In this document: positions 3,739 to 64,000 of the stretch, piece by piece
Layout: the number at the start of each line of letters is the position of its first letter
Numbering within the stretch: position 1 is the first letter of the stretch
Assembly (NCBI GenBank): GCA_003971905.1
Contig: RSEE01000052.1
Coordinates: 186,001 to 250,000, forward strand
Length of the DNA stretch: 64,000 nt
Direction: 5' to 3'
Source of the DNA: Moniliella sp. 'wahieum'
Lineage: Eukaryota
Position numbers and translations under genes: made by a program
Notes under the pieces: model-generated
What the model was told of the DNA's origin: nothing
The model's database searches: none
What the model saw: only the letters and a program-made list of their open reading frames with translations

Positions 3739-3766
3739 TCACGCGTCACGCGTCACGCGTCACGCG
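3739..3766. repeat. (TCACGCG)x4 heptamer tandem repeat
   Basis: Read directly; unit is the palindrome ACGCGT + C. Confidence 0.95.
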
Positions 3767-4714
3767 CACCTGCCTGGCCGGGCGCCCTGGCACAGCGTGG
3801 CCGCATTAGGGTTGACAGTGACAGAGGGCGGGGTATGTGCACGGGCCACACAGCTACTGCCCCCAAGTCCCAGCGCCTCGTCTCCCCACTCGGAGAGGGA
3901 GGCAGGCATCTGTCGGCCCCGCGCTTGTGGCGGCGGCGGCAGCTGGAAGACCCTGGACCAGGCAGACTTCTTCAAGCGGAGGCGGAGGGTGCCGGCTGCA
4001 CCCGCATCAATCTTACCCATTGCGAGAGGCAGGGCGGGGCGAGGGCGCGAGAGAAGGGGGCGTTTCTGTAGCCGCTGGTCTCATGCACTCATGCATCATG
4101 TTGCCTCATTAACTCATTGATCATCGGTCATCGACCATTTGTCACCGATCGTTGATTATTCATATTCAACAATCACCGATCCCCGATCCTCGATCGTCGC
4201 TCTGTTCAACATTTATATCCTCCCTGGGAGTTGGGCTGGGCGCTGGCTGCGCGTCCTGGACCCTCCCGGACCTCCGCCCAACGTCAGCAGGGATGATCAC
4301 AACCATCCCGGCGGAAATGGCCGTCGATGATCGATGATCGGTGGTTGATTCGCTGATGGGGCCTGGGGGAGCAGAGTTTGAACTGTTCAACGTTCAAGCT
4401 TCAAGGAGAGAGGAATGAAATAGGTGGCCAAATCGTTTTCAGGTGCCAATATATGAGTGAGGTGGAATGAAACGGTTGGATGAGTAACCCTTTCGGAAGT
4501 AACCTGGTGAACTCACATTGAGATATGAGAACAGCGTAACATTCCTATTGACATCCAGGCCCTCTCGGAGAAGAGGTCCCAAGGCCGGAAGATACTACAC
4601 TAAGAACCCGTTTGTGGCATGATGCATGATACATGATGCATGAAGAGCTTGAAGCTCTTCTCCAATCGCGGCTCTCGTCCTCTGTCTCATGTGGTACTGC
4701 AGCTCATTAATCGA

Positions 4715-4748
4715 TAGTTACTAGTTACTAGTTACTAGTTACTAGTCA
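4715..4748. repeat. (TAGTTAC)x4 + TAGTCA heptamer tandem repeat
   Basis: Read directly; unit is the palindrome ACTAGT + T. Confidence 0.95.
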
Positions 4749-5662
4749 TTGAGCTCCCGGACCCGTTTCGTACCATCACACAGCCAGCCCCCAAGCTCCA
4801 CGGCGCGCTCCGGCGTAGAGCGGAACTTTTTTGCATCTTGATGTGTGACATTGACGCGTGACGTGTGGGACCGCAGTGAGATTGAGAGGCCGGTGAGAAT
4901 CTGAGAAAGCTCTGAGAATGTAGAAGTCTCTATAAGCTCGAAGGACCTAAGGCCTAATATATAATACTGCACCAGCCGACACCTGCGAAACTCCTTCACA
5001 TCTTCTCTGTCGGCTCCCGCGAGCTTATAGGCAATACACATCGGCAGTGCATGAGATTTGGAATCGTCTCTGGCGCCATCCCACGGTCACGTGACCCTGC
5101 CCGCCTGTCGGTGGAACGGCAATTAATTAATTACCCCACACGCCACCATCCATGCGTGCCTCTCCTTGACTCAGATGCTCTTACGCGTTACGCTCCATCG
5201 CATCATGCCCTCTCGATCGCATTTTGACAGCTTCATCCTCGTTGCCATTGATCTTCGATCTCCTACTATACTCGTCCTGGCGCTGATATTTCATCTGGAT
5301 AAACAGAGCTGATCGTCTCCAACGTCGCCGCCGAGGCTGAGGCGCTGAGGCCTGAGGGCGTCAGAAGAGACGCGTCCTGTGGTAAACCTGCGTGAGCTTT
5401 GTGTGAGTTTTATGACACACTTGGCATCGCGAGTACATCCCCAAGTATATCATACGTGTAATATACACATAGCATACGCACCGCATTTCCTCAATCAAAC
5501 TATGGTTTCCCTCCAGGTGACTCAACCTACCCCACAGAAGCCCCACGAGAACGGCGCGGGAGGCAAAAAGCGTAATACATGATGCTGGCTGCCATAGTCA
5601 GCACAACCCAAAGTTAAGCATTTTCTTCATTTTATCTCTACACTGCATGTCATTCACATAGC

Positions 5663-6341
5663 TTAAGACAGTATTAAGAGACGAAGAAACGCTGTGCCTA
5701 AACCGACCCGTTCATCCGGCGTGTGTTTTGCTTGTTTTAGTGTCAACCCCGTTTAGGAAACCAGGGGAATCGCCGGTAGATCAGGTCCCTCTGTGGTGCC
5801 CACCTTCTGTTTCCATAACCCGAGAGGTAGGTGGTGGATACGGATGGACGTGGAAAACATCCGAGCGCCGGTGAACGTTGAACGTTGAACCATATCCATT
5901 GTGAGACTCAGTAGGTAATAATTGTTTCTAGTGCCCAAACATCTTTTGTTCGCCGTCTTGGTGGCATAGTAGTATTATCCACGCGTCGTCAGAGCCAAAC
6001 TAAGGGAAGAAGGGTTATTGGGTGCGTCCCTGGTACTTGGCCTTCTTTTGTCGCATTCTGCTGGTTCCAACAGCCGAAGCAATTCCTTCTCCTGGTGTTC
6101 CACAAAGGTGTCGCGGTGCTCTTGTGTGCACCACCCTCTCGTACGCAGGCATCGCCTCCCGCGCGCCCGAGTCCTGCAACGTGTGATCCACCTACATTTC
6201 TGATCGAATGCTCCAAGACCAATCACACCGTAGTCAGAACGCATCGCATTCCTCCCACACGCCCCGTCCCATCCTCTCCCTCACCACAGTCGGTTGTTGA
6301 TGTGGGCGTTGGAGATGGAGCGCACCAGCTATGGCGAATTA
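5663..6341 (-). mobile_element. Degenerate 5'-truncated copy of the CRE-like non-LTR retrotransposon (copy A)
   Basis: Aligns by eye to 42200-42823. Peptide remnants RSDYGVIG, EKELLRLLEPAEC, LTTRG, EGPDLPAIPLV; matching 3' UTR (gatgaacgggtcggtttagg...tcttaa). Confidence 0.85.
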
Positions 6342-9059
6342 ACAGGAGATGGAGATGGGGGAAAGGTAGAGAAGAGATCATAATCGAGCGGCAGGGAGCG
6401 AGGTATATATACCTCGGAGAAGAGGAGGACAAGTGAGCTGAGTCACACGGAGAAAACAAAGGGGAGCATATAGACCAAAAGGGGAAACAGGGTCTAGAAC
6501 AAAACAGGTCCAGTCAATCTGGTAACCATCGGTGACCAGGTGGGTCTGATCCCGACACGAATGGACTCCCACACTGTGTCTCGTGCAGTTCTATCTTATA
6601 GGCTGCGTAACCCCTCCATCAGTTATCCTTTTTCTTACCCGGGGGTGCATTCTGCACCAGAAGGATCATCATATGCGCATCACAGGATTACGCTCATGGC
6701 CACCACAGACATCCGCGGTGGCGTGTCAGACCTGGGCTCTATCAACTTGGGCTACGTTTTTCTCTCACGACTAAGCAGAGAAAGCTGGTGTATACATACT
6801 AATAGACCCGATGTAACAATCAGTAACAGGAAAAAGAGTACTATGGTACTAATACTAATAACTTCTCGGTGCACTTTCCCCGATTCGGTGGGCATGCCAA
6901 GGCAACAAACGACAAACGTTGGATCATTAGCCTGTGGTGGGGGAGGTGTGTTTCCTCTGTTCCTGCATATACGAAGCTTCCCAAATGATACCAATAAATA
7001 TGATGGATTAGAGCAGTGTAAAGATGAATGATGTGTTCGTGTAGACGTGAAATATCGACGGAACCAGTAGTGTAGGAGGACATGACCATGTCGAAAAGAG
7101 GGGCCGTTTCCACTGTTGGTATTTTCACTCAAGACGTTGGAAATATGATACGGTTGAATGAGGGACGGCCACTACTGATAAAAGCATGAGCCACACTAGC
7201 CCCCAGCCACGGTAGAGACTGTGCCCCAGCCCTCTTCCCCTCATAATGACGAGGCAGTTCCACAGCCCAGTGTAGGGCCCTGCAGTGCGAAGCAAGACCG
7301 CCTTGGGGGCAGGCGGAGTAGCCACTCCTTCCACCCAATGCCCGGGCGGAGCGGGGATGCCTCTCCCTCCACACCCGTGGTAAGGTCCAACTCGGTTTCG
7401 CTTCCGCTTTCGTCCCCTTCGATGCGACACATCTGAAGGGCTCCTCTTCTGGGTCCGGGGCCCCCTGACTCGCCAATGATACTATCGCGGTCTCCAAGGG
7501 CGGGATGATAGCCTAAAGAAATAAGGTGTCGACACGGGCACGAAAAACGAGAAAAGAAACACATGTATCGCCCAACGCGGACGCGCTGCCCAGGGCAACG
7601 TCCAGAGGAATAGGGCCGTTTGACTTCCTTCTCCGTTAGTATTAGCAGTTTTAGGATCTTCCATGGAGTACGAACATGCAGGGCATGAGTGGAGAGATAG
7701 GCGCTGGTGATCACTTGTCTGTCTCAGCGGCTGTGTTGAAGGGGAGAGGGGGTGACGTACCGCGTCACGATAATACTGATTGGGAGCAAGGCCAAGTTGA
7801 AAAAGGCCACGCTCACGGTAATACGAAACGGAAGAGATGAATCAACAAACATGAGCTCATGCCATCGTTCCATTTCCGTTTGGATCTTCATTTTCATGGA
7901 CGTCGACCACATGAATAGGACCCGATCTCGTGAACCATTGGGAATCTCTTCTCCAGACACGGCATAGGGCCAGAGGGTCTCGTTGATTCGGGATGCTGTC
8001 AACATGGAACTGACTGGGGCGATGCCATTTGAATCAAACAAACACATGGTCGTATTGGGGAGGAATGTAGCGACTAGGATGGCGTTAAGCTCGGGTAGAG
8101 TGATGTTCGTGGTGAGGTTGGTGAAGTTACTCGGCATAGTTAGGGAGCTGAAAGAGGCGTCGAGTCAGCAAGGTGTCGCATAGCAAAAGCTGTGCGACTA
8201 ATTTCCAGAAGAGGCCAAGGAGTAAGGCGCACAGTGTCCACAACTGTGCACCCCGCGTACCTCGGAGGGTCGGAGCTGGGGCCTTTGCAAGCAGGCAGCC
8301 ACCCAAACTAGAGGGTCTCTCCCCTCGCTCTACACCCGCTCGGTCCAACCACATGATCTGAAGCAGGGCCTAACGTACGTATGGCTTCAATTGGCCGTCC
8401 AAAAGGGTCTGTACCCCTAAACTACAAGGGTGGGTCTCACCTCGGGACTTCCCCCATGACATGTGAGTTTAGGCGCAGCGTTTCTTTTTTGCAGCCTCAA
8501 GTTCTCTATCAATGATATGGTTACAATACTATAGAGATACGTGTTGGTGTGATCAGCATCTCGATGCGCCCTGCAAGCCCCCCTCCCCTCGGGGAGTGGC
8601 AGCAAACGGTGCCCCCCCGCAAATGCCAGTACCACCAAATTGCGACCCGCAATGTGTGGGTTCCATTAAGAGATGGAGTAATACCGCAAATGCTGTATTG
8701 GACCGAACCCTCTACGGATGCTAGGCTCTAAAATAACAAAGGCTTGTCCTACTCTCCCAGTGTGAAATGGCACCGGCGAAGACGTCTCGCCATAATATGG
8801 CCACAAAAGATACATCGTACAGATATGCGTGGACTGGTTCCAAGTCGTCCGCACAACCCTCACACTCAGTCTGGGTCGTTACCACAAGAATCATAACCGT
8901 AATCACCACTTCTGAAAGTGTATAGGTCGATGTCCAGGTTCATAACTGCTCCGAGAATAAAGTGTACAATTCTATGTGTTGTGTATACTTGAAGCATTGC
9001 TCGGGATTCTGCTATCTCTTTCGGAGTGTCTGTCAGGTAATTGAGCCTGTAAGCGCAAC

Positions 9060-9145: not shown

Positions 9146-9146
9146 A

Positions 9147-9154
9147 TTTTTTTT
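9147..9154 (+). terminator. RNA polymerase III terminator (T8)
   Basis: Run of 8 T directly after the tRNA 3' end. Confidence 0.85.
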
Positions 9155-15012: not shown

Positions 15013-15183
15013 CTGACGTGGCCAGCCGGCTGCTCTGCCGGAACGGCCTCGGGCACCCTTCAGCGGTTCAACGTTCAGGGCCCCGCGTGGGGCATCGCCA
15101 GCGTCCAGCCTCGGCCATCACCACAGTCCAGCCTCGGCCACCCCACAGCTCCAGCCACCGCCACAGTCACGACTGCGCCTCCC

Positions 15184-17139: not shown

Positions 17140-17361
17140 GGTTGGTGTGGGAAGGTGACTGAGGAGAGGCGCCCGGAAACGGCCAAGTGGGTGCAGGCCT
17201 CTTCTGGTGCTGCTGCCAAAGCTTGTGGTGATTCGAATCACTCGCTGTCATCACCTGCATCACCGCTTGGATCATCGGATCGATCTAATTGCTCTTCTCT
17301 TTTTCCTTTTCTTCTTCATTTTCCACTGCTCTTTCGCCAGCACCACACCAGCAACCCAGCG

Positions 17362-22654: not shown

Positions 22655-24045
22655 GGTGTAGTGGTGGGGAATTTTGGAGAAGGGAAAATGATGTGGCAAA
22701 ACGGTGTCCAACGGGCGAAGAAGAGGTGCGGGTCTTAATAAGGATGCCATAAACAGCCCAACGCTGACGCGCACACATTCCGAGTTTGATGAACATCATA
22801 ACAGCAAACAATGCAATAAAGGAGTAGAGGAGCACGCACTCCGCTAGCTGCTGCTACGCACCCTGGCTACGTCGGCGCAATGTTCCTGACAGTGTGGTGC
22901 TCCTGTTGGGTCCTGAGCCTCGGACCTCAGGGTTTCAGACCGGTCCCACTAGTAGGAGATCAGAGTCCCCGTACCCCTGTGCCCCGCAGCACCACTGCCT
23001 CTTCAGTGGGGACGAGGAATTCAAGCTTGGCACTGCGCGGCAGCATAGAGGAGAAGTGCTCAGACTGGGACTTTGGCGGTCAGGACGGCCAAATAGTTGG
23101 CGCGGGGGCGCACACACTCGCTCGGCCTTTTGCGAATGCAAAGGGGGCTTTTCCTGTTGCACGTGGGTTAGCACATGAGTGTGGGCAGTGCTTCGGCACA
23201 TCAGCGCATCAATCATCAGCGGATCAGCCGAGCTGAAGCTTGAAGGCCGAGTGCAGAGCACGCCATGGGTCCAGGGCTTGCGGGGGGGGGGGGCGGACGC
23301 TCGCGGTGCGCGGGCGAGAAGACGAGCCCAGTGGAAAGAGGAAGCTGTCTGGGGGGCTGTGGCTGCGGTTGCTGCTGGGGCGGCGGGCGGAGCGAAGGGA
23401 CGGCGGCAGTTTATTACCGTTACGCTTTAATTAGCGTTCAAGTTGAACTTGAACGTACTGAACACACCGTTGATCTCCTGCTGCGATAGGGTGGCGTGCG
23501 CGTGCCCCGAACTGCCGTCATCGACTCGGCTGTTTGACATTGTAAGAGGCAACCCTGGCATCCAAGCCAGCAGCCACTTCTCGTACTTTTTACCGCCACA
23601 CCGCACCACGCACACCAACGCAGGCGAGCCTGCAACCCCCCCCCACCCCCCCCACCACCCCCCCCCAACTCTCCTCCTTTTTCAGCCCTGGCCCCCCACT
23701 CGTCAACGACGTCAGTTTTGTTGGCCACATCTTGCCCGTTCTTCTATGCGCTTGGACGCACACATTGTTGCCTCCGATGTGCCAGCCGCCATGGCTCAAC
23801 GACCATACCTTCTGGTACCCCTTCCTACATCTCTTCTACCACAGAAGCGTCAGGTAGCACAACCCTCTACCATGCCTCAAGGAGTGGGTTGATAAGTATA
23901 CCATAGGTCTATGATGGGCCAGGCGGCCAAGTTGCGGTGTAGTGTACAGGTGGAATAATAGGTGGGATGGATGGATGAGATCGATGAGCGGGCAGCCAGG
24001 GGATGTACTGCTTGTAGGGGGGCTCGCAGGGAGCGGCGGATGGAG

Positions 24046-26870: not shown

Positions 26871-27931
26871 TCACACCTCTCTCGATTGCTTGACGTCGAC
26901 CGCCTCCTCAGTCACTGTGCGTTTGCGGATGACCCCTGCCTCGGTCAGGTAGACATCGTCCTCCTCCCCTGGGACAACGTTGAACAACTTTTGTTCGCCG
27001 GTGACGATGCGCTCCGCAGTGGGCACGTCCATCTTCTTGGGCACTGTCTTGTGCTGGAACCGCTTGGTGATAGCGCGGACCATGGCACGGAACCAGATAA
27101 AATTGAGCGAATTGAGCACAACGTTGCCCGTGCAGTAGAAGAGTTTAATGCCGATGGGGATAGGTGGGGTATGAGGTACAAAAAGGGTCATGTTAAACCA
27201 GGAGATGGAGTTGTACACACCCAAAACAAGACGCACAACCACGTATGTCCCCAGCAGGAAGACGGCATTGATCAGCTGCCAGATGGAGCCCGTCATGCCG
27301 AGTTTGTCCATAAACCAATGAATGTTGAGGAACGGCGAAGACGCTTCCCAGAAAAGAAAGCCGAGGCCATCGTACATGAAAATGGGAGAGTAAATGAGTA
27401 TAAACGCAACAAAACTGACCAGGCCATGGGCGATGAATGCAACGCCTTCGTACTGGTGAACGTTGACATGCAACCGACTTTTGTCAGTGATCAGTGCAGT
27501 CAGGGGGATGGGGACGTACGCGAAGGGATATGTACATATCCCACGTAAAATATCCCAACGAAATGGCAAACACCTGACCGGCATCGAAGCTGTACCCCGC
27601 AGACGGTCAATGGCGAGAGGGTGGGGATCAACAGAACCGATTGGGTTGTTGTACACGTCAAGCCAAACGCGTGCAGCAAGGGGTGCGATAAAGGCGGCGT
27701 GAGCTAGAGCAACAAAATGCACGTCCCAGTTGCGACGGCTACGGCGATCGAATGTCTTGATGGTGCGAGGGAAGAGGAGGGGGGAAACGAGACTGGAGAG
27801 TAACTGGAGGGAAAACCAAGATAGGGCACTAACGATAATGGTTAGGACGTGCTCGGGCATGCGGGGCCGGCAGCGGTGCACCACGGCGCCACGGCCTCAG
27901 CGACGGTTGCCTGAACCTGGGCGACCGACAT
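26871..27931 (-). CDS. TLC (TRAM-LAG1-CLN8) domain membrane protein, TMEM56-like
   Basis: NWDVHFVALAHA, FIAHG, FLFWEASSPFLNIHWFMDKLGMTGS, LNSLNFIWFRAM. Confidence 0.9.
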
Positions 27932-29137
27932 GGAAGCGGGTGTGCAGCGGGGGGGAGATGAAGATAAGGTGGTGGCCTCAGGCAGACAAGGTGGAGTGGC
28001 GGATGCAGGACTGGCTCCTGTGTTGGGAGTGGGGTGGAGTAAATCTCTCTCCCTCGGCCACTGCACCTGACGGGTAAAAAAGGGAGCCGCCACCCGTCAC
28101 GCGTCACGCGTCACCGGTAACTCGCTGATTGCACGTCCCACGTAGCAGTAGGCCAGCAGCACGCCCTCGGAGATCTGATCGATGATCAATGGGACATAGG
28201 AGTCACGTCCATATCACGTTCGTATCACGTCCTTCATTGATTACCACTGTAAAAATATAGACACTCTCCGGAGACCCCAACACGGGGCGAACCTCCTTTC
28301 GGGTGGCCTGACCAGCTTGCCCTATCGGATCCAAGAGTTGGTATCGAGAACATGGAAGCGGAAAACGAAGCGAAGAGGTCCCCATATACCGAACACCCTA
28401 GGTTGATAAAACAGAGCTGCCCCCCTGTCTCTTCCCTAATATTGACCCCACGAGAGGCAACTCCCCATATGAACCGCGGTCTGCCACAAAAGAAAATAAC
28501 GCGTAAAAAGGAACCTTGAATAGGCATCGGACGTGGGAGTGGATCACAGGATTTTGCTGCGTGGGGTGCTTCGAAGTAGTCTGTAGGAACAAGCGCATCT
28601 ACATGTATACACACTATACAGAAGACAGCTAATAAAAAAAGGCAAAACTGGATACCATATATAGAGTGAGGGTGTAGCTGTTGTGGAGGGAGTGCCAGGG
28701 TTCCCCCACGGCCATCAAGCTTCAAGTGGATCCCTGACACACTCGCCTAGTGGTGTGGAAGCGTTCCGCTCGCAAGCTATACGCACCCCCTCGCCCTACT
28801 CCTCATCTCCCTTCTCTGTATCATGTCTCCTTCCCGTTGAATACAGTTGTGGCTCACTACTTTACCTTCACTAGTGAGGCACATAGGAGAGGGTGCAGGG
28901 CACAGGGACAGTGCCATACCCTGGGAGGATACCTGCAGAGTGGAAGCCGATGGAGAACCGAGGTGAATCTGGTCTACCGACTGGGACCGGAGGATCAAAC
29001 AGCTAACATTCACGCCTTTTGTCTGAAGGCTGCGTAATTTGCCATTGTGATCCCATGGGATCCCCGCGTGCTCCCAAGTCTCACACTCTGTGGCCTTAGC
29101 CTGAGGTGGCCACGGAAAGACCGGTAGTTTATAATTC

Positions 29138-39950: not shown

Positions 39951-41392
39951 GCAATGCATATTTTGGAAAAGACAGATGACCACCCGACGCGTCTCTGTCC
40001 TGCCCCTAGCTCCGTTCGGATCCTCCAATTACATAGGGTTTAATGTTGGATAAACCGCAACTGGACCCTCCTTCTCGAAGGGAAATCACCCCTAAGCCAT
40101 GAGTTATTGGGCTCCAGTTCGGGGCCCACCCATGACGCGCTTTGCCCTTCCTCGAGACAAAAATAATTCTTCCTGTTGAGTATCGGACCACAACTGGGTT
40201 GAGACTCAACATTCTGGTTCGTCCCTAGTTTGGTTTGACCTGCTTTGTGGGCGAAACGACTTAGTGGTCTGACCCTGCATGGTTCTTGCAGAGTGCCTAT
40301 ATTAATCGATGAGAGTATCATCTCGTATCTTTAAAGAGCTTTTGGCATTATTAACGACAGCGCTGCTGCCATCACAACGTGAGATGTAGGTTCGGGTTGG
40401 GATTCCGCCGTAACCGCCACCCGAAGGGGCTACTACGGCGCCAATGCTCAGGGTATGCCACTGAATCCCGAATGTCCGACCCTCTCTCGCTACAAACCGT
40501 GGGCTCGAGCGGTTGGACGGGTGGAAAGGTGGATAACGAGGTTGGAAGATGAAGGAGGCAGCGAAGTGGAGACGGGGTTATCTGTACTGAATCAATTGGC
40601 TGGAAACGGTCAGAGTTGGACAGGGAAGGCGGTAAGGGAAGAGAATGGTGTGGGGAAAAGGATCTCCATCACTGGTCCAGGATGCTGACTGTTGGCTGAC
40701 CCTTTTTTTAACCCCCTCCTCTGTCTAAGCCCGAACGCACTGGCATAGATGTTTACAGAGCGAAGCAAATGAAGTCTGCGAACGCTGCGAAGGCACTAAG
40801 GATATCATCCGATAGCACTTCCTTGTGATTGATAACCTGAAAGGCGTATGGCCTGAGGACGTTGAACTAGCGTTGCGGACGTTGGCGTCCCATGTTAGAA
40901 TGCTGTAATATAGCCGCACATGTACCAGGTTTAACATGGAGATAATAGCTTCCCTAATAGAGAGACCCTCCGCGATGCCGGCACTATAACAAGCCCCCCC
41001 GGGTGCTGTCAACCCACCTGCGTCTTGCTTTGTGCTCCTATGAGTAAAACTGAGTGTTCGCCCCCCCCCTTGATCGATGAGCGCTGAGCCCCGCCGTGTC
41101 TTCTCTCCACGGATGGCATCCCCGCTTGACTCGATACCTCTCGTTCTCCGCAGCGCTTGCGACATGTCAACGTTGTGAACAACTCTCAGCCCAGTTGCTT
41201 TTTCCGTCAGTATACTCTGTTGTGGTGGCCATCTGATTGGAGTCACTGGTTGTGGTTATGGCGCAACAGCAATAAGTTTTGCAAACGCACACATCCCGTC
41301 ATGCCGGTACATGCGGCGAACCTCTTTGTGGTGCGACGAACGAAGAACCGTACCCAGAGGATAGGGGGTAGCCACCACCACGGAAGCGGATC

Positions 41393-41428
41393 GAACGTGT
41401 TGAACGTGTTGAACGTGTTGAACGTGTT
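41393..41428. repeat. (GAACGTGTT)x4 tandem repeat
   Basis: Read directly. Confidence 0.95.
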
Positions 41429-41742
41429 GGATGTGAACTTTGATGCATTGATGATCGATGAGATACCCCCGAGCCTTCTGCATCTGAATATTGATATGTC
41501 AACGAAATGCGATGTGACAAACAGGAATACTAAATACCGAGTGATATCGATTGTTACTACTGGGGCCTTTCCGAGAGAAAGGCTGTGGCAGCGTAGCAGA
41601 GGTGCTAGACGGAAGGTTGCGGACCCTCAGGCCTCAGGGCCCAGTGCTCTCCTCGGCCTCTCAACGTTGAGATCTGAGAAGAGAGCAGGGAGAAAGGGTG
41701 CACTAACTTTTATTAGTCCATAAAACATATATACTAGGGAGC

Positions 41743-45510: not shown

Positions 45511-47597
45511 CTTGCACCCACGCGTGAACGACAACTCTTCATGACCATCCATCATTGACGACAACATTTGCGATCATGAGCCCAACAGTCAGTACCGACC
45601 GGCGGACCGTCGCTGACTTGAGTCTCTAGGCCCCAACGATACCTTTTTTTTTACTGATGAGATCGACGACCTTTTCTCTTTTTGCTGTGCATGCCACTTA
45701 AACGTTTTACGTGCGTAACGCGTAGTAACGCCTTTTGAATGATGACGGTCGACCGACGACCTGTTTTTTTTTGCTTTTATGGCATAACGACTCCCCTGCC
45801 CCTTTTGCTTCAGGCCTCACTTCCTTCTAGCTTTTGAGAAGATGGGGGTCTGTTTGCACGTTTTAATTATTGGATTGAATATTGATTGACGCGTGAAGGA
45901 CGCGGGTGCATTTGCGGACTTATAGTACTTTTAGCTCTCACATGGCACCAGTGACTTGTGTCCTGCGTGTCCTCCATGGCATGCACGGGGCATCATGTAT
46001 CATTTTCTCTGACACCGAGCTAAAGTTACACTGTGGCTATTTCGATTTCTTCTGTGACTCGTTTTGGGTATGTTGTGGTATCATGAGACACGTTGCCATG
46101 TTGTGTGGCGTGCATCAACGCCCTCGGGCCTCAGGCCTCACGTCAGCGAATCTGCACCATCATTTCACGTGTGGCAGTTGGATCGAGGATCCTTGGGGTT
46201 TCTTTTTTGGTTCGCAGTGCTGGACTGTGGCATGCTGCGATGTCATGGTGCGGCGTAAATAGGTTTTGTATAACGCGCAACGCGTAATAATGACCCACAA
46301 AAGGATGCCAGAAAGCATGTACGACACCGCTATTCTACGATACCGACGCAGCGGAGTGAGACCTGAAAGAAGCTGAGAGGGAAGTGTTGAGAGGATAATT
46401 ATACTAAGGTGCCAGGTTGTGCGAGACGCAGCTACTAACTGTTGTTGGAGATAACTGACGGCACATAATATGGTATGCGCAGCTTGCGAGCGGAGCGCTT
46501 CCGCCCGGCTAATAGGTGAGCGTCACCGCGTCACCGTTGTTGAGAAAACCGAGGGCCGTATGAGGGAACCCTAATAGTACTACCCCCTTCAACATATTTT
46601 TGGAGTAGAATTGGTTCTCAGCGTACGTTCAGGGTTGAACTGAACGTTCAGCGTTCATCCGAAAGCTCACAGGCTCACATGTGCAACCACGCTAACCCAG
46701 GCATATACTCCAACCTCGCCCGGCATTGAAGATGATCGAGTATTTCGACTATTGCTCGCATGGCTTACACACGCCTCCAACAGGATGGACGAGGTTGCCG
46801 GGGTTATGCATGTGCTGCACCACGTCATGCATCATGCATAACAAACAGGCACGGGGGCACTTGCTCACTCGCCGCCATGCCGCGGGGGGTGGCGTGCATC
46901 TGAGACATGCGGGGGAAACGAGTCGGCCGGACACAAGCGAGGCGCAGGGGGTTAATCAAAAAGGATCGGTGATCGATGATCGATGATCCGTGGTCGGTGG
47001 TTGGTCTCCCACAGGCGAATCGGCCTCCCCCACTGCGTCCTCCGCCCCCCCCCACTGCGTCCTCCGTCCTCAGGCCTCACTGTAGACTCATTAGACCTGT
47101 CTATTCCGCCCCCCACCACCATGTCAGACGGCCACACTATTTTTATGTGCCCAACAAAAATGCACGCAACTCAAGCATCCTCTCCCTTGTGCGGGCGACT
47201 AATAATAATAGTATTAGTACAGACGCTGAAGTTACAGATGCGCACCAGCCCTGTATATGCGTCGGCAAACTGGCGGTAGGGACGGACCACCGCGGGAGCC
47301 ACTGCCCCGTCCCCCACCCCTTCTCTGCCTGAGACCTAAGGCAGGTCTCAGAATGTTTCACAGGTAGACCAGGCGGGAGACATTGCCCCCGTCCCCCTTC
47401 CCACTCTTATTTGCCTTCGATCTTAATGCCAGGCTTGACTTGACAGTAGACCAGCCCGTCCCGTCGACAGCCAAAGACGCCAGCAGCACCGGCCATAAAT
47501 ACCCCCGACCGTCGCCTTCCCCTTCACCTTCCCCCCCACCTTCACCTTCCCTCTCCCACCTTCACCTTCACCCCCCACACCTTCACCACGCTGAACG

Positions 47598-49604: not shown

Positions 49605-51393
49605 TTAAAGCGAGATGCGACTGGATATCCCCCACTCTATCACGGCACGTTGGTCCAATTCCTCGCGGGGGGTGGTACGCTCCTCACCTTCCTCGTCCGA
49701 GTCGGAAAAAGGATTGTGCCTAGGCGGGTGGCCATGGACCGGGTGGATTTGGGGTGGACGTACGTCCCATTCGCCATCGGGCAACGACAACGAGGGTGCC
49801 CGTACACTCCTCGGTCGCATAAGGCGAGAAGTGTTGTTAGGACTGGGGCCCCATGCTGCCGCACTGTCCACCTCGGGAGGCGGGCTGAGCGTACCCCCAA
49901 GCCCGACCCCGGCCTCTATTCCGACCCCCAGCCCTAGGCTGCCCTGAGTCGACTCGGCCCAAGGGGTAGGCGAGGGGGCACTGACGAACGATCCGCGGTT
50001 CGTTGACGGAAGCACAGCTGATGGCGAGGGGGGTGTCATCGTTCATAGTAACCTCTCGTCGGTGCCGACGGGAGAGAAATGTTGGCGTGGCGCGGGTAGT
50101 GGGAGGCGATGATAATGGGCAGGAGGAAGATGGTGGCGCCCAGCAAGGGGGAAAGAATGGGCCCACTCTCGACGTACGCGGTCAGGGCAGATCCAAGGAG
50201 GACGTAGCACCCAGCATAAGGAACACGGCCAACAACGGTAGTGAAAAGGATCACGATCAGAGGTAATAGGCCCGTCGAGGCACAGATAAAGCTGATTTTG
50301 CGCCCCAAGTCAAAGGGCTGAGCCGGGCCAGCAGCAATTGGGCATGATGATGAGGCCGCATCATTTCTTTTCGCCAAGCGTGAATGCTATGCTCAACTGG
50401 CCCCACGCCAGCCAGAGAGGAGCGGAGGAGCCTGGCTATACCGCATGCAAGAGCGGTGCTGGGCACGGTCGCCTGTAGAAATCGGATATCAAGTAAGTGT
50501 ATGAGTAGGACAGGGCGCTGGATCAAGGGCGTACCAAGAGGATGAAGAGGGTGCCTTTCAGTGGGCCCCAGATGATTCCAGCAAGCACACTGAGGATCAG
50601 AGTACCAGGAAGGGAGAATGCCTGAACGCTGCCGAAGTCCAAGCGGGTTAGTATATGCGAGGAGGAGGGGGAGGGTGGGTGGGGTAGAGGGACCATACAA
50701 GCAAAAGAGTACCAGGTGCACAATGCGGCTATGCCAAGGCCACAATGCAGCATAGTGAACCAGAGCATGATGAAGAGCTAGTAGATCTGCGCGAGAAGTG
50801 GGCCACCTCAGCGAGGAGCGGTCGGGCCTGGTTCAAGTCAGCCCTGTTCATAAGCATACACGAAAAGAAGGCCTGAGGGGGGTCTGGGTTGAAAACGTAC
50901 TCCTGTACTGGTGGCATCAAGTAGCGGCCAAGCTCGAGGAGCGTACCCAGCGTTAAGGCGAGCAAGGCGACAAACCATAGGAGAGTGAAGCACACGGCCC
51001 CTGAGGCGCGGGCAGGAGACGACAGTATCGATGAAGGCGGCAAAGGTACGTCATAAGGGCCGAGTTCAGCGTCCCGGTGGCGAACCGAAGGATGGAAGGC
51101 GGATAGGGTGCCCCAATCATCTCGTCCGAGGAACTCGTCTTCACCGCCGTCGGCAGCCTCGGGGAGTGGGGGGTGGCAATGTCAATGGGTGCTCCAGCCG
51201 AGGCGGCGGGGACAAAGAGCACAGGGCCAGCGGGGGGGTTCGGGGGCGGCGGATGATGGCAGGAGGTCGTCCTGCCAAGCATCGCGTGCGGCGGGCACGG
51301 GGGACACCATGCTGGTGGTGCAGGACAGGGCGGCGGAGAGATGCTGGAGGGGCGGGAGATCTGAGATCTGAGAGCGGGTGGTGGCGCAGCCAC
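49605..51393 (-). CDS. SNARE-associated/DedA (TVP38/TMEM41-like) membrane protein, frameshifted
   Basis: VQAFSLPGTLILSVLAGIIWGPLKG, further hydrophobic segments, LGATIFLLPII. Start uncertain. Confidence 0.75.
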
Positions 51394-52335
51394 TCGCCAT
51401 GCTCTTTACGCACGTCACGCGTCACGGGGCATTCGCCGTTCATATTGCGCTTTGCATCATTAACCAGCAAGGCGCTGGTTTTCAGCTGGCCGGCGCCGCT
51501 CAGCTCCACATAAATCGCTCACTCGCGCGCCGCTGTCATGCGCAGCTCGCAGCAGCAGACGCATAGCAATGCCCATCCAGCTCATCTCGCCTCGCCCAGG
51601 GCAAGGACTGCTCCCACCAGCTCTCTCGCGGGCAGCAGGATCGCATGGCCGTCTGTCTGCCTGGGGCGCCCACATCGATCATCCCATACCCATCCACCCG
51701 CCCGCTGCTTGCTCCGATGGTGGCACGATCACGGCCACATGCTCTTACCTGCATCCCAGCTAAGCCGCGCCATTCCCGCACCACAGCTTTTGTGATTCTC
51801 ATTGCTGCGTGCCGTCTTGGGCTCAGCTTGAAGGAACAAGCGACCACTAACCAGGCCAACCAGATTTGGGGACTGCAGCGGCTCAAGGACTCAGGTTGAT
51901 CCCTAGGTTGTTAGTACTGAGCAGGAATGCAGGCCGCCGCTGAGCATCATTGCAGGAACAGCACCAGCTCCACACACCGAACAGATGCGCTCACAGGTAC
52001 CCACTTGGACCCAACGGCACGCTGCCTTCACTCCCCCTCGTACTACGGAGAGTCGGGTCGCGGCGCCCCCATCCGGCACTTGCTGGTCCCGCCCCTTACC
52101 CGCGAAAAATGAGCACCGGCATTATTCTTTCGCTACCCGGGCGAATTCCTGAGAGCAATGCAGACGTTCATGGGGGAGAATAGAACACTAAAGAGAGACT
52201 GAGGCAGTAAAGCTACCAGCTTCCGGCCCAGCGCAGTAGGTCCTCCGACGCGCTTCACACTCAATAGCGACCGGGAGCCCAAAGGCGAAGATAGAGGGTG
52301 CAAGCATAACAATTCTGACGCATTTGTGAGCATAC

Positions 52336-54781: not shown

Positions 54782-55098
54782 CCTCTTGGCTCGTGCGACA
54801 GGGTGGAAGCAAAAGGGAGACAGACGGGCGGGCTTCCAGCTTGTGCCGAATAGAAGAGTAAGCCTCGACTCAGCTGAACCGCTCACGCCCGATGTGGGCA
54901 CGTTACGTGGCACGCTCACGTGACCTTCAGTTCCCATCGATCCCATCCACCCCATGACGTATGATGCCTGGACATGACCGGTGACCGCCGCCGCCTGTTC
55001 CTCACTGCGTCGATCGATCAGGTCAGATTGGTGCAGCTGAGCCAGTTGCTGGCAGCCAGGCGTGCTTCCAACCACATCGACCCAGGCCGCCATTGGAC

Positions 55099-59618: not shown

Positions 59619-59664
59619 AGTCACTAGTCACTAGTCACTCTAGTCACTAGTCACTAGTCACTAG
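59619..59664. repeat. (AGTCACT)x~6 heptamer tandem repeat with one CT insertion
   Basis: Read directly; unit is the palindrome ACTAGT + C. Confidence 0.95.
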
Positions 59665-60173
59665 CACTGATCACCGGTCACCCGTAGGGCGATGGAGCAC
59701 TGCGCCATTCTTCGCACCATGGAGAGGGTGACTTGTAGGTGACTGCTTCAAAACTCGGCCTCGGCTCAAGTGGAAGAGACTGCAGGCTACGAGAGAGACT
59801 TAGCTGTGAAGGAGGAGAATGGAGGATTAACTATGTCATAACGTCCGTGGATGTGGAGCAGAAAGAGATGTCAAACACAACAGTGTGTAGTGTAGTGTGG
59901 AATGTGTTGTACAGTGTACAGAAAAGTGTTACAACTGCGGCAAAAAAGGCAAAGGGGGGACAGAATAAAAACACGACTCTTCTCAGTCCGCTGGCCAGGG
60001 CTGGCGCGTGCAAAAGCTTCCAGGCTGGAGAAGGAAAGATCACAGGCGTGAGCTACACCGGGTAAAAAAAGACAACGTCAGTCTCTGTGCTACGCCATTT
60101 GGGGAAGGGATTCGCGGCGCCCAACGCGTGGCGCATGGGGGCGGGAGGCGAGGAGGGGGAAACAAATCTCTCA

Positions 60174-61214: not shown

Positions 61215-61331
61215 GGCGGATGTGTAGTGCAAGGTGGTCACCGAGTCTGCTGAGTAGGGATGGATTGTAGTGGAAGAGGATTGGATGATGGAGATGAGAG
61301 ATGAGTGGGGTGGGGAATGAACACGCGGGGG

Positions 61332-61339
61332 TATTTATA
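61332..61339 (-). promoter_or_regulatory. TATA box (TATAAATA) of the pirin gene
   Basis: Consensus TATA about 120 nt upstream of the ATG, followed by a pyrimidine-rich tract. Confidence 0.5.
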
Positions 61340-62342
61340 CGCAGCCTGCGTTGCGTGTCGGCGACTACCGAACCAAGGCAAGAACTGTGGAGCCTAGCGC
61401 TCCTCGTAACCCGGAGCGGATCCATGGCAGATGGTGGCTCGGACGTAGCGTCTTCGGGCCAGGAGGGCAGCTGCGATGTGACAGATGGCAGACAGTCGCC
61501 TAGTCACCGGTCACCGATCACTTCCTCCGTGCTGCTTGTTGCTTGGAGACCGGCGTTCGATTGAAATTGCAAGAAGCCAAGTGGAAACGGACGAGTATCC
61601 ACCGGCCGCGACTGCCACCGCCTGCGATGGCCGCCGTTGCGGTTGCTCCGTTCCGGTCGGCGTATGCGCAAGCATCCGACCGTTCACACCGACGGCATCG
61701 AACATATTGACAGCCCACAGCTGCCTGATCGCCGAAGAGAAGAAAATGCATAAGTGCTTTGATGGCGTCGCCGACCACTAGTCGTGCGATGGCACCACAC
61801 TCTCGACGTAGGTTCTTACTCCAGGGCTCAGGCGCTCAGACCTCACCATGCAATGTAAGAAGGGGATTTGACCATGCAGACGCCTCCGACGACTTCGCCC
61901 ACTCTGCCGATTCACCCAAACTTGAGACTACAGATGTGATGCAGACGCCAGCGAAGCATCACGGAAAAGGATATACTAGGACTGTTCTGACCGGACTGGA
62001 GGAGGGCTGCCTGCTTTTTGAACCCCAACCAACCCCACCCCCCGTACCAATGCCAATGCAAGTTGACAGCGCTCGATGTATTAGTCCAGAAGAATACGTG
62101 CCTCTGCTCTTCGGTGCCCATCCAGCTGCGTCCGATCGTACAGACGACAAATTGTAGAATGAAAAGGAATTATAGTATGCACGTGCCCATGTGAGTGCCG
62201 CCTTCCCTCAGGCCCAGGTGCAGAGCGGAACAGACACTGGTTGGTGTCACGGTTATATTAACCGCGCTAGCGAAGAGGCCGATAAGGCCTGGTCCGCTCC
62301 AGGTGAACAGGTTCGCATGTGTAGCTCGTAGAGTGTGTGGTT

Positions 62343-63840
62343 TCATGCCAGCTCCAGGCCCGCTGCGGCCCAGGTCTCGAGCACCGACTCGCGCAGCCGT
62401 TGCAAGCCCTTCTCCACCAGGTCGAGGGGCACAATGGAAAAGGAGATGCGCACATGTGCGCTCGGGTCCTCCACGCCCGGGGTAAATGCGTAGCCTGGGA
62501 CGGCCAAGACACCCTTATCGCGAGCCACTTTTTCAATCAAAATTTTGGAGTCGCCAATCTTGCTGGCAGGGGTAGGGGGCAGACGCAGTTTAAGGAAGTA
62601 GAACATGCCAGCCGAGGGCACAACCCAAGTGGCCACAGACACTTGCTTTCCATCGCCGCCACTGCCCAGCACCTTCTCCAACGCCGCCTCGACAAAGTTG
62701 CGTCGCTCGAGATAAAAGTGGGCAACCTTGTCGCAATGAACAAGGAAGGTATCGAACCCCCAGTGCTGTAGGATGGTTTGGACAACGGCCTGCGCCGTGT
62801 ACGACGGCTGGAGTTGGTAGGTGCCGGTAACGAGCTCCATCGCCTTGATCAAAGGTGCAGGGCCGGTAGCGACGCCGATACGCATGCCTGCAGCCATGAT
62901 CTTACTAAAGGAGTCAAAGCGCAACACGCGCCCATCCCCCCAGGTCGTGACCTGTTCTTGTTCAAGGGCAAGGTAACTCTTCGGGCGCGGGCGGACGAGT
63001 CTTGCCCCAAGCCGTCAAAGGAGAGGAAATAGTACGGATCGTCCTCCAAAAGGAGCAGTCCAAACTCGCGGGTAATGGACAAGATCTCCCGCCTACGCTC
63101 CTCGTCCGCCGTGGCACCACTGGGATTGCCGCCAGTGGGAATGGTGTAGAGCACCTTGGGGAAGCGCATCCCTTTCGACTTGGGGTGACTGTTCCACTGC
63201 TCCAATGTGGTGCGAAGCGCGCGGGGCTCCAGCCTCGGGCATCAGTGGGGACGCTATACAACTGGTTACCCAACAGTGCCGCGGCGCCCGTAGCCTCACT
63301 GAAGATAGACATTAGCTGTGGGTAAACTGATACAGGGAAAGCACATACGGGAACGTAGGACCTTCCACGAGCAGCGTGTCGCCCGGATCGGTGAGGACAA
63401 TCATCACTTTGCAAATCAAGTCTTGGGAACCGTTGCCTGTCATGGTGGCCCAAGGCGTGTGGACGCCGGGGTTGTGCGGGTCAAAGTCAGGCTTGGCATG
63501 GAGTTTCTTCTGGTATCCATGCAGGGTTTTGACGAGCGAAGGCAAGCCGGCCGACATGCCGTACTGCAGGCTGCTTTCTAGGTCCTCAGGGAAACGCGCA
63601 ACTTGTCCGGGACGCCGGTGTGTGGGTTGGTGACGTCGACGCACATGCCGCGCACGGAAAGGCGCCCGGGTTGGGCTTGCCGGCCAAGAAGGAAACCATG
63701 CCGGGCACCTGCTCGTAGGGGAACAGACCGCGGATCGCAGGCGAGGGCCATGCGTTGAGCACCGCACTCATCCACGTGCTGGCATAGTCGACATGGGGGG
63801 AGGGGGTGGTGTGGGGAGGAGCACTGTGTGCGACGGGCAT
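62343..63840 (-). CDS. PLP-dependent class I aminotransferase (ARO8 / 2-aminoadipate / kynurenine type), frameshifted
   Basis: SPAIRGLFP, SFLAGKPNP, LQYG, GNGSQD, YTIPTGGNPSG, LLEDDPYYFL, RFDSFSKIMAAGMRIG (PLP lysine), GMF. Confidence 0.92.
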
Positions 63841-64000
63841 AGTAATGGAGTGGATGGACTGGTGGTGGGGCCTGAGGGTCTGAGCGGGGAGCGGCTCTCG
63901 GCCAATAATATGGCAGCAACCCGAGTCACACGGTGACATGCTGACTAGTGACTGGCAGCGGACATTGATAAGTGGACAACACCCCCGTCTTTCTCCACTC

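What the first reader, a model, noticed from the sequence alone, without database searches (positions are those of the whole stretch)
3739..63955. Window-wide family of 7-bp repeats with one grammar (A-nnnn-T palindrome + 1 nt) but many sequences
Seen, nearly all intergenic: (TCACGCG)n at 3739, 28097, ~51415; (TCGATGA)n at 4324, ~18843, ~46971; (CATGATG)n at 4618; (TAGTTAC)n at 4715; (TTACGCG)n at 5181, 29946; (CTGAGGC)-like at ~5338; (GAACGTT)n at 5873; (AGTCACT)n at 59619; (TCACCGG)n at ~59670, 61504; GACTAGTGACT at ~63943. Each unit is T-N-A plus a 4-bp palindrome (CGCG, TCGA, TGCA, CTAG, ACGT, GGCC, CCGG), so each array is symmetric about two alternating centres. One transcription-factor site or ordinary slippage would not give so many different cores with the same geometry. 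Inference: a hairpin-primed or template-switch synthesis/repair process that writes such repeats, or a structure-recognising chromatin element. I do not know of a description of this grammar.
Basis: partly seen in the sequence, partly recalled or inferred. Interest (0 to 1): 0.7.

Follow-up and report, generated by a model that had tools for sequence, protein, structure and literature searches.

The report
Transposon excision scars in fungal promoters
The many different 7-base palindromic repeats between the genes of this smut-related fungus are real, and are best read as repair scars left each time a cut-and-paste transposon jumped out of a T-any-A site: a known kind of scar, here unusually regular and dense.

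Summary
19 of 26 exact period-7 repeats have a unit made of a 6-bp palindrome plus 1 nt (chance 11%). The 10-bp core TNA + 4-bp palindrome + same TNA occurs 59 times against 2.2 expected. None of the 15 other X-N-Z frames is comparably enriched (highest 10 vs 3.4).

The smallest event is 12 periodic bases: five flank bases copied directly, with two inverted bases between the copies. The inverted bases always come from the side away from TNA, so the unit is a symmetric 7-mer, abTNAxy. Rarer +8 and +9 variants duplicate that whole 7-mer with 1-2 inverted bases between the copies. One array is absent from two paralogous copies.

Best reading (0.68): footprints of a transposon with a 7-bp target-site duplication at nnTNAnn. 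It leaves hairpins on the flanks, each nicked 2 nt from the tip. Repeated visits, perhaps helped by slippage, build the arrays.

No such element lies in the window. Transposons with 7-bp duplications are reported in Basidiomycota (PMC12730594). '10-bp repeats' in Ustilago maydis were already suggested to be transposon footprints (PMC4081816). This scan had already flagged the same pattern on other pieces of this genome. Verdict: a known kind of feature, moderate interest.

The parts
1651..1661 (.). single core TCA-TCGA-TCA, no 2-nt flank match
2119..2128 (.). single core TTA-GGCC-TTA, no flank match
3739..3766 (.). array (TCA-CGCG) x4, 28 nt exact
4079..4100 (.). +8 variant (whole 7-mer + 2 inverted nt + 7-mer minus 1) followed by a standard +7 scar TCA-TGCA
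4104..4118 (.). +8 variant scar on a TCA-centred 7-mer
4324..4340 (.). array (TGA-TCGA), 17 nt exact
4385..4405 (.). chain of two different palindromes (ACGT, AGCT) sharing TCA; reconstructs exactly as one left-type plus one right-type scar on one ancestral 7-mer
   Evidence: hand reconstruction noted
4617..4643 (.). array (TGA-TGCA) with one substitution
4715..4746 (.). array (TTA-CTAG) x4.6, 32 nt exact
4852..4863 (.). minimal scar TGA-CGCG, right-flank type (12 periodic nt)
4946..4966 (.). chain TAA-GGCC / TAA-TATA, left type plus right type
5181..5193 (.). scar TTA-CGCG, right type
5336..5357 (.). +8 variant (7-mer + 1 inverted nt + 7-mer) followed by a standard +7 scar TGA-GGCC
5872..5890 (.). 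array (TGA-ACGT) x2.7; absent from both paralogous copies
8457..8466 (.). single core TGA-CATG, no flank match; abuts a 20-nt inverted repeat arm
15066..15077 (.). minimal scar TCA-ACGT, left type
17249..17264 (.). +9 pattern (7-mer + 2 inverted nt + 7-mer) in coding-like sequence; weakest member
23234..23245 (.). minimal scar TGA-AGCT, right type
27457..27466 (.). single core TGA-ACGT inside the TLC-domain reading frame, no flank match; may be chance
28095..28120 (.). array (TCA-CGCG) x2.9 continued by CCGG-TAA
28176..28187 (.). minimal scar TGA-TCGA, right type
28497..28506 (.). single core TAA-CGCG, no flank match
28715..28726 (.). minimal scar TCA-AGCT, right type
29743..29758 (.). +9 variant: non-palindromic TGA-centred 7-mer duplicated whole, with 2 inverted nt between the copies (direct evidence for a 7-bp duplication)
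29852..29863 (.). minimal scar TCA-CATG, left type
29884..29897 (.). scar TCA-ACGT, 14 periodic nt
29945..29964 (.). array (TTA-CGCG) x2.9
30022..30054 (.). plain 7-bp tandem duplications of TCA-centred 7-mers, with no inverted bases
30287..30299 (.). scar TCA-ATAT, left type
30421..30436 (.). +8 variant on a TCA-centred 7-mer
41071..41089 (.). chain TGA-TCGA / TGA-GCGC (first without flank match, second right type)
41393..41429 (.). 9-bp array x4.1 = TGA-centred 7-mer + 2 inverted nt, repeated
41439..41461 (.). +8 variant followed by a standard scar TGA-TCGA (left type)
41485..41494 (.). single core TGA-ATAT, no flank match
41625..41638 (.). scar TCA-GGCC, both flanks match
41668..41679 (.). 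minimal scar TGA-GATC, right type
45810..45819 (.). single core TCA-GGCC, no flank match
45874..45896 (.). scar TGA-ATAT (left type) next to core TGA-CGCG
46127..46140 (.). scar TCA-GGCC, 14 periodic nt
46520..46536 (.). +8 variant: TCA-centred 7-mer + 1 inverted nt + 7-mer
46825..46839 (.). scar TCA-TGCA, 15 periodic nt
46970..46988 (.). array (TGA-TCGA) x2.7
47068..47079 (.). minimal scar TCA-GGCC, left type
51356..51373 (.). array (TGA-GATC) x2.6
51413..51426 (.). scar TCA-CGCG, both flanks match
54975..54987 (.). scar TGA-CCGG, right type, just upstream of the COQ7 frame
59619..59664 (.). two arrays (TCA-CTAG) joined by a +9 step (59631-59648)
59671..59682 (.). minimal scar TCA-CCGG, right type
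61291..61305 (.). plain 7-bp duplication of a TGA-centred 7-mer
61503..61516 (.). scar TCA-CCGG, right type
63942..63953 (.). minimal scar TGA-CTAG, right type

Best explanation
The repeats are donor-site scars of a cut-and-paste DNA transposon. SHOWN: each elementary event adds 7 bases at a 7-mer abTNAxy. Five bases are copied directly, and the two bases between the copies are the reverse complement of the two outer bases of the 7-mer, on either side. Rarer variants keep the whole 7-mer twice, with 0, 1 or 2 inverted bases between the copies. INFERRED: the element inserts with a 7-bp staggered cut centred on T-N-A (N is mostly C or G) and so makes a 7-bp target-site duplication. On excision both flanks are sealed as hairpins exactly at the element boundary. 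Each hairpin is nicked 2 nt to the 3' side of its tip. That leaves a self-complementary 4-nt 3' overhang on each flank and a 5' end recessed by 2 nt. Each overhang is then exactly as long as the gap opposite it, so both strands can be ligated with no trimming or filling. The result is a 4-nt mismatch bubble, which replication or mismatch repair resolves into one of two mirror products: abTNAxy-y'x'-TNAxy or abTNA-b'a'-abTNAxy. Both are seen. Each scar regenerates TNA sites, so further insertion and excision cycles, perhaps helped by slippage once two units exist, build period-7 arrays and chains of different palindromes that share one TNA. Selection against 7-base frameshifts, perhaps with a preference for open promoter DNA, confines the scars to intergenic DNA.
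For: Specificity: TNA-pal4-TNA (same N) 59 vs 2.2 expected, while the other 15 X-N-Z frames stay near expectation. Only filler length 4 is enriched. Flank rule: of 49 arrays, 40 have a 2-nt flank equal to the adjacent half of the palindrome (right 21, left 12, both 7, none 9), against 12% by chance (p 1e-28). For single cores the modal flank extensions are (0,2) x10 and (2,0) x7. Symmetry about TNA: TNAxy+y'x'+TNAxy at 38 positions (0.23 expected) and abTNA+b'a'+abTNA at 29 (0.12 expected). Variants with the inverted bases taken from the TNA side number only 2 and 3, and 4 of these 5 positions lie inside palindromic arrays. A whole 7-mer duplicated with inverted bases between the copies: +9 form at 29743, 41399/41408, 17249, 18846 and 59633 (0.0 expected); +8 forms at 5336, 30422, 46521, 4079, 4104 and 41439. 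Arrays are derived insertions: the array at 5872-5890 is missing from two paralogous copies. Strand symmetry: TCA 21, TGA 21; right vs left type 21:12, not different from 1:1 (p 0.16). 13 of the 16 possible 4-bp palindromes occur, as expected if the filler is copied from arbitrary flanks. Location: 33 of 46 loci in noncoding-like DNA. Literature: hairpin resolution with palindromic P-nucleotide insertions is the accepted origin of Ac/Ds footprints in plants, yeast and Candida (passages of PMC5873905). hAT families with 7-bp duplications ('hAT7', Puccinia and Melampsora) and Kyakuja elements with 7-bp duplications (Laccaria) are reported in Basidiomycota (passages and section 3.2.1 of PMC12730594). 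10-bp repeats in U. maydis were suggested to be transposon footprints (passages of PMC4081816).
Against: No candidate element was found in the window. None of 209 stop-to-stop frames of at least 110 aa matched a DNA transposase (shorter frames were not scanned). No terminal-inverted-repeat element flanked by a 7-bp repeat was found, and no convincing short-range inverted repeats. No whole genome, strain or read data could be obtained, so no filled or empty site was seen. The scars are far more uniform than experimental Ac/Ds footprints, which gave 28 types among 128 events in Candida. Their palindromes are even-centred, whereas Ac/Ds palindromes centre on the complement of the base next to the element. 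So the chemistry is not that described for Ac/Ds, and the 7-bp hAT lineage may not fit. 9 of 49 arrays show no flank match, and only about 2 such cores are expected by chance. Arrays of 4-5 units need repeated hits at one site or an added slippage step. The double-ligation and mismatch-bubble step is my inference and is untested.
Confidence: 0.68

Rival explanations
1. An endogenous break-and-repair or replication template-switch process acts at T-N-A sites without any transposon. For example, a host nuclease makes 7-bp staggered, hairpin-capped breaks, or a polymerase copies two bases of the opposite strand and then re-copies five.
For: No transposon was found in the window. The outcome is extremely stereotyped, more like one enzyme-defined reaction than like untidy end joining.
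Against: A 7-base direct duplication with inverted bases at the junction needs two events, a staggered insertion and a later double hairpin break. A transposon supplies both; no known host process does. The +8 and +9 variants that keep the whole 7-mer twice look like a retained target-site duplication. A dyad-symmetric short target is typical of transposase dimers (general knowledge, recalled).
Confidence: 0.12
2. The element makes a 5-bp duplication (as Transib/RAG-type or LTR-type integrases do) of TNAxy, and one flank contributes 2 P nucleotides.
For: The modal scar is literally a 5-bp direct repeat with 2 inverted bases between the copies. A Copia element lies in the window.
Against: With a 5-bp duplication the inverted bases should come equally from either end. 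Those from the TNA end are essentially absent: 2 and 3 positions, against 38 and 29. Eleven variant loci duplicate the whole 7-mer, including the two outer bases. LTR elements do not excise.
Confidence: 0.06
3. Ordinary microsatellite dynamics: near-palindromic heptamers form hairpins that favour slippage, so they expand preferentially. No special birth process is needed.
For: The arrays are quasi-palindromic by construction. Arrays of 3-5 units exist, and slippage may well add units once two are present.
Against: It does not explain the birth of the unit from a non-repeated 5-mer or 7-mer, the strict TNA requirement, the flank-mirroring rule in 40 of 49 arrays, or the dominance of 1.7-copy events. 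Period-5 repeats with units of 4-bp palindrome + 1 nt are not enriched: 14 of 84, against about 31% expected (the expectation is my own arithmetic).
Confidence: 0.05
4. Selected cis-regulatory or chromatin elements: arrays of dimeric transcription-factor sites at 7-bp spacing, or a structure-recognised element.
For: The scars concentrate in promoter-like intergenic DNA. Some of the 6-bp palindromes they create resemble known fungal factor sites, for example the ACGCGT cell-cycle box (recalled, not tested). Single-motif ACGCGT-N arrays with conserved flanks do exist in unrelated metagenome contigs.
Against: There are 13 different cores, and the core is dictated by the neighbouring two bases. 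One array is absent from paralogous promoters. Nothing here argues against later co-option.
Confidence: 0.05

Closest known systems
'10-bp repeats' of the Ustilago maydis genome, suggested to be transposon footprints (Laurie et al. 2012 Plant Cell; Schirawski et al. 2010 Science; as cited in PMC4081816)
   Same: The core here is 10 bp long (TNA + 4 + TNA). Both are numerous, lie between genes, occur in Ustilaginomycotina and are read as footprints of past transposon activity (passages read).
   Different: I could not open either primary paper, so I do not know their sequence pattern. This genome is not U. maydis: the best named relatives of one protein are 44-49% identical.
Excision footprints of hAT transposons (Ac/Ds, Hermes), including the 7-bp 'hAT7' lineage of rust fungi
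   Same: Hairpins on the flanking DNA; a retained target-site duplication with short inverted copies of the flank at the joint; net gain equal to the duplication length. hAT7 families make 7-bp duplications in Basidiomycota.
   Different: Ac/Ds palindromes are centred on the complement of the base next to the element (odd centre), and the footprints are heterogeneous. Here the palindrome is even-centred and one product dominates. The usual hAT duplication is 8 bp with consensus nTnnnnAn (recalled); here it is 7 bp, nnTNAnn.
P nucleotides at V(D)J coding joints and Transib-type excision
   Same: The hairpin forms exactly at the border and is opened about 2 nt off the tip, giving even-centred palindromic additions of 2 nt (textbook knowledge, recalled).
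   Different: RAG and Transib make 5-bp duplications. Here the whole 7-mer is duplicated. No such element has been seen here.
Kyakuja (KDZ) transposons of Agaricomycotina
   Same: 7-bp target-site duplications in Basidiomycota.
   Different: Their excision chemistry and target consensus are not given in the text I read. None was found in the window.
Tc1/mariner footprints (TA + element-end bases + TA)
   Same: A short palindromic insertion between two copies of the duplicated target.
   Different: There the filler comes from the constant element ends. Here 13 different fillers are copied from the local flank.

Membership tests
Hairpin-on-flank transposon excision scar (generic) | Two direct copies of the target-site duplication remain at the empty site | tested here: met
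   A 5-nt direct repeat in the modal scar and whole 7-mer repeats in 11 variant loci
Hairpin-on-flank transposon excision scar (generic) | The junction carries an inverted copy of the terminal flank bases (P nucleotides) | tested here: met
   40 of 49 arrays obey the flank rule (p 1e-28)
Hairpin-on-flank transposon excision scar (generic) | A spectrum of junctions differing in the number of P bases and trimmed bases | tested here: met
   +7 with P2 (49 arrays), plain +7 (3 loci), +8 (6 loci) and +9 (5 loci)
Hairpin-on-flank transposon excision scar (generic) | An element with the same duplication length and target exists in the genome | not testable with these tools
   No genome is held. None was found in the window.
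hAT footprints (Ac/Ds type) | 8-bp target-site duplication | tested here: not met
   Net gain 7, with 7-mers duplicated. A 7-bp hAT lineage is reported.
hAT footprints (Ac/Ds type) | [quoted passage not shown] | tested here: not met
   The palindrome is even-centred (xy|y'x') and the central N is the same in both TNA copies. Feature taken from PMC5873905.
hAT footprints (Ac/Ds type) | hAT transposase or its remnants nearby | tested here: inconclusive
   No hit among 209 frames of at least 110 aa. Shorter frames and the rest of the genome were not searched.
Transib/RAG-type | 5-bp target-site duplication | tested here: not met
   Inverted bases never come from the TNA end, and whole 7-mers are duplicated
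Slippage microsatellite | No dependence of the unit on flanking sequence or on a fixed trinucleotide | tested here: not met
   Strict TNA requirement and flank rule
Transcription-factor site array | One conserved core sequence | tested here: not met
   13 different 4-bp cores in 49 arrays
U. maydis 10-bp repeats | 10-bp intergenic repeat read as a footprint | tested here: inconclusive
   Length and setting agree, but the sequence pattern was not seen because the primary papers are not held

The most novel reading that the evidence does not exclude
The scars report an uncharacterised cut-and-paste element of Ustilaginomycotina, or a nuclease domesticated from one. It would combine a 7-bp staggered integration at nnT(C/G)Ann with RAG-like hairpins formed exactly at the border. 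Both hairpins would be nicked at +2 and both strands ligated with no processing, so that one excision gives a 4-nt mismatch bubble that segregates into two mirror scars. By returning again and again to promoter TNA sites, it would act as a mutational engine that writes arrays of A-NNNN-T palindromes, which are ready-made sites for dimeric factors, into regulatory DNA.
Probability: 0.15. Interest if true: 0.65.

Novelty: new member of a known kind. Interest (0 to 1): 0.4.

Why it matters
If this reading holds, about 60 seven-base insertions in 64 kb record an intense past or present wave of transposon traffic through the promoters of a fungus whose window holds no such element. The scars by themselves give the element's duplication length (7 bp), its target (nnTNAnn) and the point at which the hairpin is opened (+2). 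That is enough to identify the element in a full assembly. The scars also explain an excess of heptamer repeats that would otherwise be taken for microsatellites or regulatory motifs. Each scar creates a 6-bp palindrome in promoter DNA, so the scars are a plausible source of new factor-binding sites. The pattern probably matches the poorly described '10-bp repeats' of U. maydis, which would make it a feature of the whole subphylum.

Tried and rejected
Whole genome of the window: none is held. Public sequencing runs for window 1-10000: none was listed, so no reads could be laid and no strain polymorphism was seen.

All carry one motif only (T-N-A-CGCG arrays, often with conserved flanks, G+C 0.30-0.75) and not the many-core grammar. 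I set them aside as a different thing.

Search for a terminal-inverted-repeat element flanked by identical 7-mers: only a trivial self-match and one weak pair. Short-range inverted repeats gave nothing convincing. Pfam scan of frames of at least 110 aa: no DNA transposase. I listed the 316 frames of 70-109 aa but did not submit them.

Models I rejected on paper:
- A 3-bp TNA duplication with P nucleotides from both flanks. It predicts the filler TN'N'A, which is not palindromic and was not seen.
- An 8-bp or 5-bp hAT duplication with the one-base offset chemistry. It predicts odd-centred palindromes or a fixed TA in the filler.
- Element-end-derived filler as in Tc1/mariner, which is excluded by the 13 different fillers.
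- Retention of both overhangs (+11; two adjacent 4-bp palindromes between the TNA copies): 0 found.

Papers: Laurie 2012 (by DOI and PMC id) and Laurie 2013 are not held. The supplements of PMC4081816 gave no occurrence in the files searched; 4 of 15 files were not searched. Full-text searches that found no description of the TNA/7-bp grammar.

Two protein searches did not help with taxonomy. In one search the best named hits were about 53% identical and came from mixed phyla. In one search I chose the wrong length class.

Full report
**What the window is.** The window is 57% G+C and carries intron-split fungal genes. These include an amino-acid permease, a TLC-domain protein, an HSF-type factor, COQ7, a pirin, a GH5 glycosidase and a Zn2Cys6 factor. 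There is also one Copia-type LTR retrotransposon at 30731-36004 with two identical 211-nt LTRs. The best named relatives of the TLC-domain protein are all Ustilaginomycotina (Pseudozyma, Ceraceosorus, Violaceomyces, Tilletiaria, Testicularia, Exobasidium, Tilletia and others), at only 44-49% identity. So this is a smut-related fungus with no close named relative in that database. No whole genome is held for it.

**Checking the observation.** Two need small corrections: the repeat near 18843 has a 9-bp unit, and the one near 5338 mixes an 8-bp and a 7-bp step.
- Of 26 exact period-7 runs of at least two units, 19 have a unit that is a 6-bp palindrome plus one base. Only 10.9% of heptamers have that property (p 1.7e-13).
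- The 10-bp core, T-N-A + 4-bp palindrome + the same T-N-A, occurs 59 times against 2.2 expected from 50 dinucleotide shuffles. The 15 other choices of outer letters give 1-10 against 2-6 expected.
- With a different N in the second triplet the count is 16 against 5.7 expected.
- Only a palindromic filler of four bases is enriched. Fillers of 2 and 6 are not, and none of 8, 10 or 12 was found.
- Among longer runs, period 7 has 11, period 6 has 5 and period 8 has 1.

**Anatomy of one event.** The 59 cores fall into 49 period-7 runs. For single cores, the periodicity extends beyond the core by (left, right) = (0,2) ten times, (2,0) seven times and (0,0) eight times; other values are rare. So the commonest object is 12 periodic bases: TNAxy, then y'x', then TNAxy, or its mirror image.
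- Counted by array, 40 of 49 have at least one 2-base flank equal to the neighbouring half of the palindrome (right 21, left 12, both 7, none 9), against 12% by chance (p 1e-28).
- The palindrome is therefore copied from the local flank. This explains why 13 of the 16 possible 4-bp palindromes occur.
- The middle base is C or G in 42 of 49 arrays, against 67% of T-N-A triplets in noncoding-like DNA (p 0.004). TCA and TGA are equal at 21 each.

**The unit is a symmetric 7-mer.** If the event were a 5-bp duplication with two inverted bases, the inverted bases should come from either end of the 5-mer. They do not. The forms with inverted bases from the end away from TNA number 38 and 29 positions (0.23 and 0.12 expected). 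The forms with inverted bases from the TNA end number 2 and 3, and 4 of these 5 positions lie inside palindromic arrays. So the event is symmetric about TNA and involves two bases on each side: abTNAxy.

Rarer variants show the 7-mer directly.
- At five loci (29743, 41399/41408, 17249, 18846, 59633) a whole TNA-centred 7-mer is followed by two inverted bases and then the whole 7-mer again, a gain of 9 (0.0 expected).
- Six loci show gains of 8, with one inverted base, or with two inverted bases and the second 7-mer one base short.
- Three loci are plain 7-base duplications of TNA-centred 7-mers (30022-30054 holds two of them; the third is 61291-61305).
- The locus at 17249 lies in coding-like sequence and is the weakest.

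**The arrays are derived insertions.** Three diverged copies (about 70% identity) of one gene-plus-upstream segment lie in the window. In their alignment, the copy at 5700-6200 carries the array at 5872-5890 within a 17-base insertion that the other two copies lack. Fourteen of those bases are two 7-base units added to a site that reads xGAAC in the paralogues. The other three bases are an untidy difference next to the array.

**Location.** A crude codon-usage classifier, trained on the 16 Pfam-supported frames,% of the window coding-like. 33 of 46 loci fall in the other 42% (p 4e-5). The scars cluster in a few intergenic stretches: 3.7-5.9 kb, 28.1-30.3 kb, 41.0-41.7 kb, 45.8-47.1 kb and 59.6-59.7 kb. 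Several of these are upstream of divergently or leftward-transcribed genes. Seven-base insertions in exons would shift the frame and be lost. A preference for open promoter DNA is also possible but was not tested.

**Mechanism (inferred).** A direct duplication with an inverted copy of the flank at the joint is the hallmark of a transposon that excises by sealing the flanking DNA into hairpins. The hairpins are then opened off-centre and the ends rejoined. This is the accepted origin of Ac/Ds footprints in plants, budding yeast and Candida (passages of PMC5873905).

With a 7-bp target-site duplication abTNAxy, hairpins formed exactly at the element border, and a nick 2 nt to the 3' side of each tip:
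- the left flank ends in the 3' overhang xyy'x';
- the right flank ends in the 3' overhang b'a'ab on the other strand;
- both 5' ends are recessed by two bases.

Each overhang then spans exactly the gap opposite it. Both strands can be ligated with no trimming and no synthesis, giving a 4-base mismatch bubble. Resolving the bubble gives abTNAxy-y'x'-TNAxy or abTNA-b'a'-abTNAxy. These are the two observed classes, in a ratio (21:12) not different from 1:1 (p 0.16). This accounts for the fixed gain of 7, the regularity and the mirror classes. The +8, +9 and plain +7 variants are the same reaction with a hairpin opened at 0 or 1 instead of 2.

Each scar recreates TNA sites. A second visit at an inner TNA lengthens the array. 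A second visit at an outer TNA can start a different palindrome. The chain at 4385-4405 reconstructs exactly as one right-type and one left-type scar on one ancestral 7-mer (worked by hand, noted). Slippage may also add units once two are present.

**Which element?** None is in the window. Two lineages with 7-bp duplications are reported in Basidiomycota: 'hAT7' in Puccinia and Melampsora, and Kyakuja in Laccaria and other Agaricomycotina (passages and section 3.2.1 of PMC12730594). The scars do not fit Ac/Ds chemistry in detail. Ac/Ds palindromes centre on the complement of the base next to the element, whereas these are even-centred and keep the same N in both copies. In that respect they resemble the P nucleotides of V(D)J coding joints (recalled). 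I therefore file them as hairpin-type excision scars, not as hAT footprints.

**Rivals.**
- A transposon-free nuclease or template-switch process (0.12) remains possible, because no element was seen. But it has to invent both a 7-bp duplication and a double hairpin break.
- A 5-bp duplication model (0.06) fails the side test and the whole-7-mer variants.
- Pure slippage (0.05) and selected factor-site arrays (0.05) explain neither the flank rule nor the 13 different cores.

**Evidence from elsewhere.** No sequencing run was listed. These carry a single motif, T-N-A-CGCG arrays often with conserved flanks, in contigs of very different G+C. That is a different, single-site phenomenon.

This scan had already noted the same pattern on other pieces of this genome and read it as excision scars. 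I re-derived the '5 + 2' structure independently. I add three things: the evidence for a 7-bp duplication, the paralogue test and the literature links.

[quoted passage not shown] They cite Laurie 2012 and Schirawski 2010. I could not open those papers. The shared length, setting and interpretation make it likely, but not certain, that they describe this core.

**Verdict.** It is best explained by a known kind of process, so it is a new member of a known kind. What stands out is its density, its regularity and how much it reveals about an element that has not been seen. Interest 0.4.

Noticed in passing
window 30731-36004: Copia-type LTR retrotransposon (integrase, RVT_2) with two 211-nt LTRs that are 100% identical, so it is a recent insertion. 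It holds no same-N scar core. It sits next to the scar-rich stretch at 28.1-30.3 kb.
   Followed up: partly
window 5686-6237, 29148-29420, 42296-42801: Three diverged copies (about 68-72% identity) of one gene start plus about 230 nt of upstream DNA. The open frames downstream have no Pfam match. I used them as a paralogue control for the array at 5872.
   Followed up: partly
window 5684-5703 and 8467-8486: A 20-nt inverted repeat (95%) whose left arm is the start of the paralogous segment. Its right arm directly abuts the scar core at 8457-8466. There is no duplication at the outer ends, and the meaning is unknown.
   Followed up: partly
L010 (23 arrays in 11.5 kb), L014, L073, L050 and other metagenome loci: Unrelated metagenome contigs (G+C 0.30-0.75) carry many T-N-A-CGCG heptamer arrays, often with the same flanking words (such as 'cgattttt' or 'cgcgagga'). 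They look like arrays of a single site spaced at 7 bp, perhaps regulatory or mobile. This is not the many-core grammar of the fungus.
   Followed up: partly
window 20877-21989 (-): The best named relatives of the amino-acid permease are only about 53% identical and are mostly Ascomycota (Penicillium, Pseudocercospora). The TLC protein's relatives are Ustilaginomycotina. Two unnamed assembly-derived proteins are 83-84% identical. This may be a transferred or fast-evolving gene.
   Followed up: no
window 59340-59381 and 23636-23666: An ordinary hexamer microsatellite, (CTGGGA)7, lies just upstream of the scar cluster at 59.6 kb, and there is a 31-nt C-rich run. Neither fits the scar grammar.
   Followed up: no
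window 12796, 28868, 35735, 41661, 43170, 46641, 20390: Seven perfect 10-bp palindromes, TNA-pal4-TN'A with the complementary middle base (about 1.9 expected by my own arithmetic from the 5.74). Two of the seven have a flank match. They could be scars opened 4 nt from the tip, or unrelated palindromes.
   Followed up: partly
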